Source: Cenarchaeum sp. (GTDB lineage: Archaea > Thermoproteota > Nitrososphaeria > Nitrososphaerales > Nitrosopumilaceae). Taken from it: a stretch of 64,000 nucleotides of DNA. Location of the stretch: contig OZ242221.1 of the NCBI GenBank assembly GCA_965206845.1, positions 1,280,001 to 1,344,000 of the forward strand, given 5' to 3'. The notes under the pieces are model-generated. The model saw only the letters and a program-made list of their open reading frames with translations. It ran no database searches and was not told where the DNA came from. Each line of letters starts with the position of its first letter. The stretch's first letter is position 1. A program made the position numbers and the translations under genes. Below are positions 51,550 to 54,465 of this stretch, piece after piece.

Positions 51550-51984
51550 TCATCCGTCCCGGCGGAGCGACTCGAGCAGCTCCCTGTAGGTGCTCTGCAG
51601 ATCTACCTTGCGGTACACCGGCGTGAATATCTTGATCCTGACGGGACTCTGCTGGAGCAGCTTCAGTCTGCCCTGGACAAACTCCTGCCTGTCAAAGCGC
51701 AGGTATATTCCGGAACCCGAGACAAAGAGATCCATGTCCTCCAGTATCTCCTGAAACTGCCCATTCTTCATGCGCCGCACCATCCTGCCGACAAACCTGC
51801 TGGCCTGCCTTCTGGCAATCTTGGCGCTCAGAACCGTGATGGGGTTCTCAAAGTGCCCGGTCTGGTGCGACACGGCAAAGTCGTCCTTGTGCAGGTCGTA
51901 TATCTCAAAGGCATCAAAGAATTTTGTGGAATCCTCTGTGGCGTGAAGTATGACATCAATGCTAACTTCCAGCCTGTTTGCCAT
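51550..51984 (-). CDS. DUF54-type RNA-binding protein
   Basis: ILHATED, GHFENPI, YLRFDRQ; normally downstream of rps3ae. Confidence 0.75.
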   Translation of the reverse strand: MANRLEVSIDVILHATEDSTKFFDAFEIYDLHKDDFAVSHQTGHFENPITVLSAKIARRQASRFVGRMVRRMKNGQFQEILEDMDLFVSGSGIYLRFDRQEFVQGRLKLLQQSPVRIKIFTPVYRKVDLQSTYRELLESLRRDG

Positions 51985-52001
51985 CTTGTGACTAGGCTAT
52001 G

Positions 52002-53850
52002 GGGAGTTATATACAAAAGTTACCAGAACCCTTGCCTTTTTTTGGCGCTCTGGCGATCCCTCCCATGCTTGCCTCTCGCATGTTGTTCGCGGAGCGCGCG
52101 AGAGCAATCCCGCGCTGGAATCTCGCGCCTTGGGACGACGTTCCCCGCCGCTCTGCCGTCGCCTTGACGGCAATGTTGTACGCGACATTGATGTCCGCGT
52201 TGATGTCGTTCTTACACCTGTGGTTCGTGCAGTGAAACTCCCCCTGCGATATCCGGGAGTCCTTGTCCCTGCGGCTGCAGACGTGGCATGTTGTGCTGGT
52301 GCCTCTGGGGTCGACCGTTATGATCATCACGCCGGCGTTCGCGCATGCGCCCTCAATCCGCATTTGGAACGTCCTGGGACGCGAGTACGCCATCTCTCGG
52401 TTGAGGCCGGTCTTGGCCGAGCTGCCTTTGCCTTTGGCAGTCATGTTCTTGACTTTCAGATCCTCGATGACCACCGTGCCGGCGCCCTCCGCCACCTTCT
52501 TTGACGCGTGCCTCTCCCAGTTGGTCTGCCTGTTGGCGACCTTTTCCCTCTTCTTCTGGATTCTTCTTTGGAGCTCCTTGTAGCCTCTTGACTTTGGCTT
52601 CCTTGGCCTGTCGCGCCTGGCATTCCTGTTGATGCTGCTAGCATTGTCCTGCTTGCCGTTCGCGTTGCCATCGTGGCCGCCGCCCTTGCCGTTCTGCCTG
52701 ATGCGCCTGTTTCCGCTCCCGCCGCGCTTCCGCGAGAGCTCCGAGTACATCTTCGATATCTCATCACCCTTCGTCCTCCTGCAGCCGTCCGGAATGTCGT
52801 GGAACGTATGATGACCTGTATCCAAGTCGACCGTCGTTGCGCCGTGGACTATGCCCATGTCGACTCCCCTGATGACCGCATATTCTGATGGCTTGGGCGC
52901 CTTTATCCCGACCTGGATGTGGAGGCGGTACGTCCTGTGGCGGTCCTTTGTGAGTCTGGTTGTCTTCTTGGTCGTCTCCACCAGCTGGAATGAACGCATG
53001 TCAAGCCCATCCACGTCACCATGCACCTTCACGGTGCTTATGCCGGGAAGATGCAGCAGGCCGCCGCCCTTGGACACGGGACTCTGAAAACACAGAGAGC
53101 TTGCCTTCCGTCCTTCCTCCTGAGCAGGTCGCCCTTGTGGCTCCACCTATTCCTCTTGTTGCTCCACTTGTTAGGCGGCAGGTTTGCCGCAGTGCCGATG
53201 TCTGGAATTCCCTCCTTTTCCCTGTCGTGCCTGGCTAGGTTTTTCCACATTATTTTGTTGTAGCGCTTGGTGGCGTTTGACTCCATGAACCTTTTCACGG
53301 CGTCCAGCCCCTGCCGGAGGCCGGTCCTCTGCACCCTGCTGTCACAGGCCTGCCGGAGTCCGACCGCCTGAGCGTCGTCATCACGGACAAGCCATGTGTT
53401 CGCGTTCCTCCATTTGGTGAGCATGCCGTCAAGGTCAAATTTGGTTATTCTCGGGTCGCCCAGAACCTTCCGGACGGGCATGTTGTACGCCCACCTCTGC
53501 TGGTCCATGTGGCGCGATATCAGCTTTGACAGATCCCCGGACTGGTCAAAGTCCACTTTTATCGTGCGGACCATGATGCCCTTCCTTGCGCGCCTTGGCC
53601 CCTTTTTTGGCGCCGGCGCGGTTACGGTTGCCATGATGGGTTTCATTACCGCATGCAAATGTCAAATGTGTATAAAAACACCGCGACTATACCATGCAGA
53701 CCGTCCGCACCGGCATGGGCATCAATGCCATTATGCCTGCCCATGCGGTTCCCGCCGTCCAGATTGCCGCGCCGGTATCGCGCAAAGGCAGCGCGTGAAA
53801 AGGAGCGCCAAAAAAGGCAGGGGTTTTGGTTACTTTTGTATGTAATTCCC
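52002..53850 (-). mobile_element. TIR-bounded non-autonomous element carrying tnpB
   Basis: TIRs 52002-52050 and 53803-53850 (43/49 identical); flanks AGGCTATG / GGGTTATG (6/8, degenerate TSD). Confidence 0.8.
52007..53646 (-). pseudogene. tnpB: TnpB (RNA-guided RuvC nuclease) split by one frameshift near 53085-53092
   Basis: N-part 53038-53646 (MDQQRWAYN); C-part GVDMGI, VVIEDL, VDPRGTSTTCHVC...CTNHRC...NADINVAYNI. Confidence 0.85.
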
Positions 53851-53853
53851 GGG

Positions 53854-54465
53854 TTATGCCTCAAGGAGTGTGATCTGCTGTTGCGCCGTCTGCACCAGCT
53901 TTACCTTCTCCAGCCCAACATGCCTCAGCCGGACCAGCTTCTTGCCTGCCGCCATTATGTCCGAGTTGATCTTGCCGTAGCATGTGGCCTGCACGAACTG
54001 CGCGATGGTCATCTCCGGCACGGACTTCTCTATGACCTCCTTGGCGATCAGCCTGAGGGCGCGCATTCTTGACGTGTTGAGCTGGCGGTGCGTCAGTACG
54101 AGCACCTTGATTCTAAAGGTATACTCGTCCTTTGTCCTGACGTCCATGATTAAGTTGATCCGGGACGAGCCGCGCCGCACTAGGCTGCGCAGGTACTCCT
54201 TGGCGTACTCGTATCGCTTGAAGATGCTTGTGGCCCGATCCCCGTCAATGTCGTCGATCTGAAAGTAAATCTTGTACTGGTTTTGGGAGGGATCCCCCTT
54301 TAGGATATCGTGCAGGGTTACCTCGATTACTCTGCCTTTGGCACCCTCCTCGCTGGTAACGGGAATGTATGCCACAAAGACGTTTCTGAACGAGTCGGGA
54401 GCGTATACGGTAATCCATTTCTTCTCCCGCCACTTGTCCTTCACTCGTGTCTTTCGGCGCGCCAA
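53854..54465 (-). CDS. rps3ae: 30S ribosomal protein S3Ae (eS1)
   Basis: KDKWREKKW..V.AP, YLRSLVRRGSS. Confidence 0.95.
   Translation of the reverse strand: MARRKTRVKDKWREKKWITVYAPDSFRNVFVAYIPVTSEEGAKGRVIEVTLHDILKGDPSQNQYKIYFQIDDIDGDRATSIFKRYEYAKEYLRSLVRRGSSRINLIMDVRTKDEYTFRIKVLVLTHRQLNTSRMRALRLIAKEVIEKSVPEMTIAQFVQATCYGKINSDIMAAGKKLVRLRHVGLEKVKLVQTAQQQITLLEA

What the first reader, a model, noticed from the sequence alone, without database searches (positions are those of the whole stretch)
52002..53850. tnpB carried by a terminal-inverted-repeat element instead of an IS200/IS605 or IS607 chassis
Seen: ~48-bp imperfect TIRs (GGGAGTTATATACAAAAGTTACCAGAACCCTTGCC...GGCGCTC versus GGGAATTACATACAAAAGTAACCAAAACCCCTGCC...GGCGCTC) and flanks AGGCTATG/GGGTTATG. 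The right flank copy includes the rps3ae stop codon, so the element sits between rps3ae and the DUF54 gene. The only cargo is tnpB, whose ORF ends inside the left TIR. Established knowledge: IS200/IS605 and IS607 elements lack TIRs and TSDs. Inference: a DDE-type non-autonomous cassette has captured an RNA-guided nuclease. GGnnATTAT-like ends with an 8-bp duplication recall IS1595 (ISNwi1-like) elements, from memory. If so, the omega-RNA scaffold must overlap the TIR.
Basis: partly seen in the sequence, partly recalled or inferred. Interest (0 to 1): 0.78.

Follow-up and report, generated by a model that had tools for sequence, protein, structure and literature searches.

The report
TnpB nuclease riding an IS1595-type transposon
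A small cut-and-paste style transposon of the IS1595 family has swapped its transposase gene for an RNA-guided nuclease (TnpB) and its guide-RNA scaffold, which runs into the transposon's inverted-repeat end; this copy sits between two ribosome-related genes and is broken by a frameshift.

Summary
Window 52002-53850 is a 1849-bp element with 41-49-nt terminal inverted repeats (TIRs), an imperfect 8-bp target duplication (6/8) and tnpB as its only gene. tnpB here is split by a 1-nt deletion. The genome holds 15 diverged copies. Across three genomes, 29 of 37 such elements have TSDs matching at 7-8 of 8.

Transposase-encoding IS1595-family elements with 8-bp TSDs share the terminal 13 nt (a related archaeon) or 20-25 nt (bacterial MAGs). 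The genome has one intact IS1595 transposase gene with a related left end. It has no Y1 or serine TnpA.

A structured RNA at the tnpB 3' end, supported by covariation, extends into the TIR. The tnpB stop codon lies 5 nt from the element's end.

Two findings are new. The base just upstream of the TSD on the tnpB 5' side is G in 26 of 29 insertions, against 6 of 29 for the mirror position, so it is a candidate TAM. RNA-library contigs from a near relative show the exact empty site.

DDE-associated TnpBs and solo copies moved in trans are published (PMC10691335). I found no paper naming IS1595. This scan noted the same kind in two other genomes.

The parts
51982..52001 (-). Candidate guide-encoding flank: the first 20 nt beyond the TIR on the tnpB 3' side. 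It contains the 8-bp TSD copy (51994-52001, AGGCTATG on +) and reaches the DUF54 start codon (51982-51984).
   Evidence: Position is by analogy with TnpB omega-RNAs, whose guide lies just outside the element end (inference).
52002..52050 (.). TIR at the tnpB 3' end (GGGAGTTATATACAAAAGT...GGCGCTC).
   Evidence: All 15 genome copies start at this exact position.
52002..52153 (-). Omega-RNA-like structured scaffold, helices H3-H8. H8 (52035-52027 with 52021-52013) and the 3' arm of H4 (52048-52044) lie inside the TIR. Two further helices reach 52199.
   Evidence: RNAalifold on 15 copies. 97.3% of cells are paired against 35-49% in slid controls, and 44 cells changed on both sides against 1-4 in slid controls; invariant G-U pairs. 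Coordinates. Model R1 finds it in other genomes.
52007..53146 (-). tnpB, C-terminal frame (379 aa ORF): RuvC motifs, zinc finger, TNB domain. The stop codon 52007-52009 is inside the TIR.
53085..53086 (-). Site of a 1-nt deletion (frameshift) that splits tnpB in this copy.
   Evidence: Alignment with 7 other copies.
53038..53658 (-). tnpB, N-terminal frame (206 aa ORF).
   Evidence: It aligns with the N-terminal part of intact copies.
53803..53850 (.). TIR at the tnpB 5' end (reverse complement GGGAATTACATACAAAAGTAACCAAAACCCC...).
   Evidence: 24 of its first 25 nt equal the TIR of a transposase-encoding IS1595 element in a bacterial MAG (L125; hand count).
53851..53858 (.). Second TSD copy (GGGTTATG). 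It contains the rps3ae stop codon (53854-53856).
53859..53859 (-). Candidate TAM position: G on the tnpB-sense strand, immediately 5' of the TSD in the empty site.
   Evidence: G in 26 of 29 insertions with TSD >=7/8. The TAM role is inference.
51550..51984 (-). Flanking DUF54 / RNA_binding (PF01877) gene.
53854..54465 (-). Flanking ribosomal protein S3Ae gene.

Best explanation
The element is a non-autonomous derivative of an IS1595-family (DDE) insertion sequence. The transposase gene is replaced by tnpB together with its omega-RNA scaffold.

Shown:
- It has IS1595-type ends (GGGAATTATATAC...) and makes 8-bp target duplications.
- It inserted between rps3ae and the DUF54 gene.
- Its family is multi-copy and its TnpB is under purifying selection.
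- A conserved RNA structure at the tnpB 3' end runs into the TIR.

Inferred:
- An IS1595 transposase supplied in trans binds the TIRs and moves the element. Candidates are the genome's single intact one-ended IS1595 gene at about 27.5-28.5 kb, or transposases that visit by transfer.
- The omega-RNA is transcribed through the TIR into the flank, so its guide is the TSD plus downstream DNA.
- TnpB then cuts element-free alleles that carry the same sequence preceded by a TAM ending in G. Occupied alleles read ...TTCCC at that place and are spared. Recombinational repair copies the element back.

The window copy itself is probably dead as a nuclease gene because of the frameshift and the decayed TSD.
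For: Chassis:
- 15 copies in the genome at 71-78% identity.
- All share GGGAATTATATA... ends. Of 37 elements in G000, G207 and G116, 25 have 8/8 TSDs and 4 have 7/8.
- TnpB relatives at about 30% identity in other genera sit in the same TIR/TSD frame.

Partner:
- G207 holds elements with an IS1595 transposase plus a methylase-HNH passenger, the same terminal 13 nt and 8/8 TSDs (L085, L086).
- The 20-nt TIR was found in 45 stretches of genome contigs, 14 of them in bacterial MAGs. 7 of those 14 hold an IS1595 transposase and 0 of 14 hold TnpB. Five complete bacterial elements have 8/8 TSDs.
- All five transposases tested pass NF033547. The genome's own one is 59-60% identical to the archaeal ones and 50-52% to the bacterial ones.
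- Its left end GGGGCTTATATCGCTGAGTACACA matches TnpB-element TIRs at 19-20 of 24 (hand count).

Not IS605/IS607:
- No Y1_Tnp or Resolvase hit in a 99.99% complete genome.
- All 16 TNB-domain hits belong to this family.

Insertion:
- Empty site in 11 of 11 relatives.
- Contigs of two RNA-library runs join 51997 to 53855, skipping 1857 nt, which is the element plus one TSD copy.

TnpB:
- NF040570 passed. The fold matches TnpB/Cas12f; 8h1j TM 0.73.
- D-E-D and CxxC..CxxxxC are conserved.
- Core dN/dS is 0.22 over 55 pairs. The last 50 codons have dS 0.21 against 0.79 and dN/dS 1.1, so the constraint there is on nucleotides.

RNA.

Target asymmetry:
- G at -1 in 26/29 against the mirror C at +1 in 6/29, Fisher p 1.6e-7.
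- Transposase-encoding elements show G at 6 of 18 ends, p 9.5e-5 (hand count).
Against: - No transposase-encoding element with the full TIR was found in this genome. The one IS1595 gene has only a left end; no right end was found within 8 kb.
- 3 of 10 TnpB-TIR genomes tested have no PF12762 hit (G280, G128, G226).
- Within archaea the identity of ends between TnpB elements and transposase elements is 13 nt only. The 20-25-nt identity is to bacterial elements.
- No TnpB plus transposase pair inside one TIR pair was seen.
- G at -1 is not universal. Five further elements from five other genomes show it in 2 of 5.
- A one-base TAM would be unusually short.
- Expression is not shown. All runs laid were contigs and DNA may be in them.
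- The single-sequence fold of the window RNA is not better than shuffles (z -1.3).
- No Rfam family matches.
Confidence: 0.8

Rival explanations
1. An ordinary IS200/IS605- or IS607-type tnpB element that merely sits nested inside an unrelated MITE. On this view the TIRs and TSD belong to the MITE, not to the tnpB unit.
For: A hairpin (helix 8) lies inside the TIR at the tnpB 3' end, where IS605 right ends also carry a hairpin.
Against: All copies begin exactly at the TIR tip. The tnpB stop codon is nt 6-8 of the TIR in all 22 elements of G207 and G116 that measured (stop 5 nt from the end), and in the window copy, so no room is left for an inner end. No tnpB of this family occurs without the TIR frame. 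The genome has no Y1 or serine recombinase. Invariant G-U pairs point to an RNA structure on the sense strand, not a DNA hairpin.
Confidence: 0.02
2. The element is autonomous. The TnpB RuvC (RNase H-fold) nuclease itself, alone or with its RNA, carries out TIR-dependent transposition with 8-bp duplications.
For: TnpB is the only gene and is kept under purifying selection. Three genomes with such elements show no IS1595 transposase. This genome has only a one-ended transposase gene.
Against: The ends and the TSD length are those of transposase-encoding IS1595 elements. That explains the architecture without a new activity. [quoted passage not shown] Non-autonomous elements commonly outlive their partners.
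Confidence: 0.04
3. The chassis reading is right, but TnpB and its RNA do nothing for the element: passive cargo, or a host-recruited function. On this view the G at -1 is a target preference of the transposase.
For: The TAM role is only inferred. G at -1 is weaker in other subfamilies (2 of 5). The review PMC13565253 (passages) argues that DDE cut-and-paste elements gain little from an OMEGA nuclease.
Against: The catalytic triad and zinc finger are conserved and core dN/dS is 0.22 across copies that diverged within the element family. The RNA structure is kept by compensatory changes across genera. The G preference is tied to tnpB orientation, whereas the termini are symmetric. It is not seen at the ends of transposase-encoding elements (6 of 18).
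Confidence: 0.2

Closest known systems
DDE-transposase-associated TnpB branches (DDE-1 to DDE-6) and solo TnpBs mobilised in trans (Altae-Tran et al. 2023, PMC10691335; section 9 read in full, passages elsewhere, part 3 of the supplement PDF)
   Same: TnpB inside a transposon with inverted terminal repeats. The tnpB 3' end lies close to the transposon end. Solo TnpBs are framed by the ends of transposase-bearing elements.
   Different: The text I could read names only IS630. A 2026 review (PMC13565253, passages) lists ISL2, IS630 and IS1031. IS1595 appears only in a list of profiles in the supplement. Here the transposase is absent from every TnpB copy, and the hosts are ammonia-oxidising archaea. 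Figure 4 and the Additional Files were not visible, so one of the six branches could still be this one.
IS1595 family insertion sequences (features as stated in PMC8101967, introduction passages: usually 8-bp TSDs, a single transposase with Zn_Tnp_IS1595 and DDE_Tnp_IS1595 domains)
   Same: TIRs starting GG, 8-bp TSDs, and the same terminal 13-25 nt as elements that encode an IS1595 transposase. The ends GGGAATTAT fit the ISNwi1-group consensus ggnnatTAT as I recall it.
   Different: It encodes no transposase. The only gene is tnpB plus a structured RNA, so it is a non-autonomous derivative and not an IS1595 member proper.
IS1341-group (tnpB-only) elements of the IS200/IS605 family
   Same: A single tnpB gene, many diverged copies per genome, and an omega-RNA region overlapping the 3' end of the gene.
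   Different: IS200/IS605 elements have no TIRs and make no TSDs (PMC13565253 and PMC3119063, passages). This family has both, and the genome has no Y1 TnpA.
Fanzor nucleases in eukaryotic TIR/DDE transposons
   Same: A TnpB-type nuclease carried by TSD-generating DDE transposons (PMC13565253, passages).
   Different: This one is prokaryotic. It has the canonical catalytic arrangement, with the RuvC-II glutamate about 60 residues before the zinc finger (hand count), not the Fanzor rearrangement described in that review.

Membership tests
IS1595 family (as a non-autonomous derivative) | Terminal inverted repeats starting GG | tested here: met
IS1595 family (as a non-autonomous derivative) | 8-bp target site duplication | tested here: met
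   25 of 37 elements have 8/8 and 4 have 7/8. The window copy has 6/8.
IS1595 family (as a non-autonomous derivative) | Encodes a transposase with the DDE_Tnp_IS1595 domain | tested here: not met
   The only ORF family in the 15 copies is TnpB. The single PF12762 hit in the genome lies elsewhere.
IS1595 family (as a non-autonomous derivative) | Ends shared with transposase-encoding members | tested here: met
   13 nt shared with L085/L086 (archaeal) and 20-25 nt with L125, L137, L143, L156, L163 (bacterial). Their transposases pass NF033547.
IS1595 family (as a non-autonomous derivative) | ISNwi1-subgroup end consensus ggnnatTAT | not testable with these tools
   The consensus is recalled from ISfinder. 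GGGAATTAT fits it. A search for 'ISNwi1' gave 2 papers, both, by title and abstract start, about other bacteria and not about transposon ends.
IS1595 family (as a non-autonomous derivative) | Mobilised by an IS1595 transposase | not testable with these tools
   Needs a transposition assay.
TnpB (RNA-guided nuclease, OMEGA) | RuvC D-E-D triad, zinc finger, TnpB profile and fold | tested here: met
   PF07282 and PF01385. NF040570 scores 122 bits against a cut-off of 100. Motifs. Foldseek to 8h1j and 8dzj.
TnpB (RNA-guided nuclease, OMEGA) | Intact gene in the window copy | tested here: not met
   1-nt deletion at 53085/53086. 12 of the 15 genome copies have one long ORF.
TnpB (RNA-guided nuclease, OMEGA) | Conserved structured RNA overlapping the 3' end of the gene and reaching the element end | tested here: met
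TnpB (RNA-guided nuclease, OMEGA) | The RNA is expressed and carries a flank-derived guide; TAM-dependent cleavage | tested here: inconclusive
   Only contigs could be laid. Some from an RNA library cover 52005-52206. Ends, strand and cleavage were not testable.
IS200/IS605 or IS607 | Y1 (HUH) or serine-recombinase TnpA available | tested here: not met
   0 hits for PF01797 and PF00239 in the own genome. The named control genomes gave hits in 6 and 12 of 14.
IS200/IS605 or IS607 | No TIRs and no TSDs | tested here: not met
   Both are present.
DDE-associated TnpB (Altae-Tran 2023) | Placement in one of the named branches DDE-1 to DDE-6 | not tested
Only the main text and part of the supplement PDF were read.

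The most novel reading that the evidence does not exclude
The orientation-specific G (with a T at TSD position 1) next to the duplication is the footprint of TnpB's TAM. On this reading, a DDE transposon that makes TSDs keeps only, or mainly, those insertions whose empty allele its own RNA-guided nuclease can recognise. The guide starts inside the target duplication. One 48-nt stretch would then serve three purposes at once: transposase-binding TIR, the last stem of the omega-RNA, and the tail of the tnpB reading frame. The same chassis circulates between bacteria and archaea of one kind of habitat.
Probability: 0.35. Interest if true: 0.75.

Novelty: new variant of a known kind. Interest (0 to 1): 0.58.

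Why it matters
TnpB is thought to pay its way by re-cutting the sealed empty site that IS605 and IS607 excision leaves. Why it should help a DDE transposon that makes duplications is an open point; the 2026 review PMC13565253 discusses it.

This family offers a clean natural system for that question:
- dozens of independent insertions with exact boundaries;
- a transposase family with the same ends;
- an RNA scaffold that must coexist with the transposase-binding site;
- a candidate TAM that can be tested directly.

It also shows that the many tnpB genes of sponge-associated and other ammonia-oxidising archaea are not IS605 relics, which matters for annotation.

Tried and rejected
- Fuzzy regex over the whole genome timed out. 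It was replaced by BLAST.
- My first motif scan near the genome's transposase gene found nothing because its end reads GGGGC, not GGGAA. It was found later.
I scanned with the 20-nt TIR instead.
- Rfam gave no match at E up to 1 over 51800-54000.
- The single-sequence fold of the window RNA has z -1.3, no better than shuffles.
- RNAalifold on a mixed set of 20 elements from G207 and G116 gave a poor consensus (-7.5 kcal/mol), because three subfamilies were mixed. The covariance model handled them instead. The model missed 7 TnpB loci of other subgroups (L036, L039, L047, L050, L051, L053, L055).
- Laying runs gave contigs only. Uncovered parts say nothing, and depth over 52005-52206 and 53419-53519 cannot be read as expression.
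- No right end was found for the genome's IS1595 gene within 8 kb.
- Literature searches: 'TnpB'+'IS1595' gave 9 papers, none on this by title. 'TnpB'+'Nitrosopumilus' gave 0. 'ISNwi1' gave 2, both irrelevant.
- Considered and dropped: a 9-bp TSD or shifted element boundary as the cause of the G at -1. The flanks do not fit it (reasoned).

Full report
**What is in the window.**
Window 52002-53850 is bounded by inverted repeats. A 41-nt ungapped arm pair (52002-52042 / 53810-53850) is 88% complementary. A further exact 13-nt block extends the arms to about 48-49 nt with one indel. A 30-nt TIR pattern had no chance match in 100 shuffles. The flanks AGGCTATG and GGGTTATG agree at 6 of 8.

On the minus strand lie the S3Ae ribosomal protein gene (53854-54465) and a PF01877/DUF54 gene (51550-51984). 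The S3Ae stop codon falls inside the right flank copy. The only gene inside the element is tnpB (PF07282, PF01385). It is in two frames, 53658..53038 and 53146..52007. The break is a 1-nt deletion between 53085 and 53086 relative to 7 other copies. The stop codon TAA is nt 6-8 of the TIR.

**It is a transposon family with exact ends and 8-bp duplications.**
The window lies in a 1.65-Mb single-contig genome with 57% G+C. The element matches 44 places there, which resolve into 15 large copies at 71-78% identity. All start at the same terminal base on the tnpB 3' side. Twelve of the 15 carry one long ORF of 543-685 aa. One is N-terminally short, one is interrupted by another IS (PF01609), and the window copy is frameshifted.

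I examined 37 elements in tnpB-sense orientation: 15 from this genome, 17 from G207 and 5 from G116. Of these, 25 have perfect 8-bp duplications and 4 have 7/8. Eight have fewer, including the window copy at 6/8.

A protein search over 401 genomes of the class found relatives in 17, this genome included. They are concentrated in two genera, 7 of 84 and 8 of 9 genomes. These relatives are only about 30% identical in protein. They still sit in 1.42-1.57-kb elements with GGGAATTATATA... ends and 8-bp duplications. A second subgroup has different TIRs (L036, L038, L039, L053, L055) and was not followed.

**It is an insertion.**
rps3ae and the DUF54 gene are adjacent in 11 of 11 relatives examined, 0-37 nt apart, and 1 nt apart in the same-genus genome. 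Contigs of two RNA-library runs from one study (714 and 664 nt) join 51997 to 53855. They skip 1857 nt, which is the 1849-nt element plus one 8-bp copy. They differ from the window at 11-12 positions on the DUF54 side and 5-6 on the S3Ae side. They therefore come from a near relative that has the empty site.

**The chassis is IS1595.**
The genome has no Y1 (PF01797) and no serine recombinase (PF00239) hit, and the named control genomes did give hits. All 16 TNB-domain hits belong to this family. One IS1595 transposase gene is present: 309 aa, PF12762 and NF033547. Upstream of it lies GGGGCTTATATCGCTGAGTACACA, which matches TnpB-element TIRs at 19-20 of 24 (hand count). No right end was found within 8 kb.

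In G207, elements of 2690 and 2837 bp carry an IS1595 transposase plus an N6/N4-methylase-HNH passenger. They end in GGGAATTATATAC/G with perfect 8-bp duplications. They share the genome with about 17 TnpB-only elements that have the same terminal 13 nt.

A scan of one genome per species with the 20-nt TIR GGGAATTATATACAAAAGTA gave 45 stretches. About one is expected by chance, by my own arithmetic from the collection's size. Fourteen are in bacterial MAGs whose record titles name Dehalococcoidia, Gammaproteobacteria, Caldilineaceae, Chloroflexota, Cloacimonadota, Rhodothermales and Latescibacterota, plus one titled only 'bacterium'. Seven of those 14 hold an IS1595 transposase, 48-54% identical to this genome's. 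None holds TnpB. Five are complete elements with 8/8 duplications. The TIR of one of them (L125) equals the window's 5' TIR at 24 of its first 25 nt (hand count).

IS1595 members are described as usually having 8-bp TSDs and a transposase with these two domains (PMC8101967, passages). The ISNwi1 subgroup label is recalled, not tested.

Against a simple trans model, 3 of 10 TnpB-TIR genomes tested show no PF12762 hit. No element with both genes was seen.

**TnpB and its RNA.**
P0001, an intact copy, passes NCBIfam guided_TnpB. Its AlphaFold model has mean pLDDT 69.9. Three stretches are disordered: residues 1-36, a low-complexity insert at 312-347, and the tail at 503-550. The model matches Cas12f and TnpB structures over its length, with 8h1j at target TM 0.73. 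The D, E, D residues and the CxxC...CxxxxC finger are conserved in the 12 ORFs aligned.

Across 55 pairs of 11 intact copies the core (442 codons) has dN/dS 0.22 with dS 0.79. The last 50 codons have dS 0.21 and dN/dS 1.1. The tail is therefore constrained as nucleotides, not as protein.

RNAalifold on the last 240 nt of 15 copies gives 8 helices. 97.3% of cells pair, against 35-49% when partners are slid. 44 cells have changes on both sides, against 1-4 in slid controls. Several pairs are invariant G-U, which fits RNA on the sense strand. Helix 8 and the 3' arm of helix 4 lie within the TIR.

A covariance model built from this genome's copies finds full-length matches at the tnpB 3' end in 19 of 33 sources. 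It finds none in 7 transposase-encoding elements, and it misses 7 TnpB loci of other subgroups. On that alignment, which is fitted to the model, 27 of 37 pairs show compensatory change. The window RNA alone does not fold better than shuffles, and Rfam has no match.

**An unexpected asymmetry.**
Among the 29 insertions with TSD >=7/8, the base just before the duplication on the tnpB 5' side is G in 26, and TSD position 1 is T in 23. The mirror positions show C in 6 and A in 13-14 (Fisher p 1.6e-7). The ends of nine transposase-encoding elements show G at 6 of 18 (hand count; p 9.5e-5). Five further TnpB elements from five other genomes show G in 2 of 5.

If the guide starts at the element's end, this G sits where a TAM would lie in the empty site. 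The occupied site has C there. I read it as a candidate TAM footprint. This is inference.

**Comparison with the literature and novelty.**
Altae-Tran et al. 2023 report six DDE-associated TnpB branches with inverted terminal repeats, and solo TnpBs with the same ends that are probably moved in trans. Only IS630 is named in the text I read (PMC10691335, section 9). A 2026 review lists ISL2, IS630 and IS1031 (PMC13565253, passages). I found no paper linking TnpB with IS1595 or with Nitrosopumilus. Figure 4 and the Additional Files of the PNAS paper were not visible.

Earlier notes of this scan describe the same kind in two other genomes. I rate it a new variant of a known kind.

Noticed in passing
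L085:248-2937 and L086:279-3115 (G207); L125 and L143 (bacterial MAGs): Transposase-encoding IS1595 elements with these ends carry a passenger gene for an N6/N4 DNA methylase fused to an HNH nuclease. The chassis therefore carries nuclease-type cargo in both versions.
   Followed up: partly
L125-L163: The exact 20-nt TIR occurs in MAGs of at least seven bacterial groups as well as in Nitrosopumilaceae. This suggests transfer of the IS1595 chassis between bacteria and archaea. TnpB was in 0 of the 14 bacterial loci.
   Followed up: partly
G000:C1:870769-871797 (L015:343-1371): One genome copy of the TnpB element is interrupted by another IS that encodes a 342-aa DDE_Tnp_1 (PF01609) transposase.
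   Followed up: partly
L036, L038, L039, L053, L055 (genus g3 genomes): A second subgroup of related TnpB genes is framed by a different inverted repeat (..TATAGTGAAAAGCGAAAGTTCGTGCAA..). No duplication was recognised for it.
   Followed up: no
L130:3201-3459; G207:C1:658457-658571; G116:C1:1710543-1710860: Short pairs of the same TIR, 115-318 bp apart, look like MITE derivatives. The 259-bp one in L130 has an 8/8 duplication, ATAAAATA.
   Followed up: no
G000:C1:27524-28506 (L031:1399-2381): The genome's only IS1595 transposase gene is intact (309 aa) but has a recognisable TIR at one end only. Next to it lie repeats of another type (GGCTCTGTTCAAATCAGGTGATCT).
   Followed up: partly
P0001 residues about 312-347 (window about 52600-52730): A hypervariable low-complexity insert rich in G, N, S and K differs in length among copies by up to about 40 residues. 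It is predicted disordered.
   Followed up: no
window 53669-53683: An A/T-rich TATA-like box lies about 30-40 nt upstream of the first ATG of tnpB on the minus strand. This was seen by eye only.
   Followed up: no
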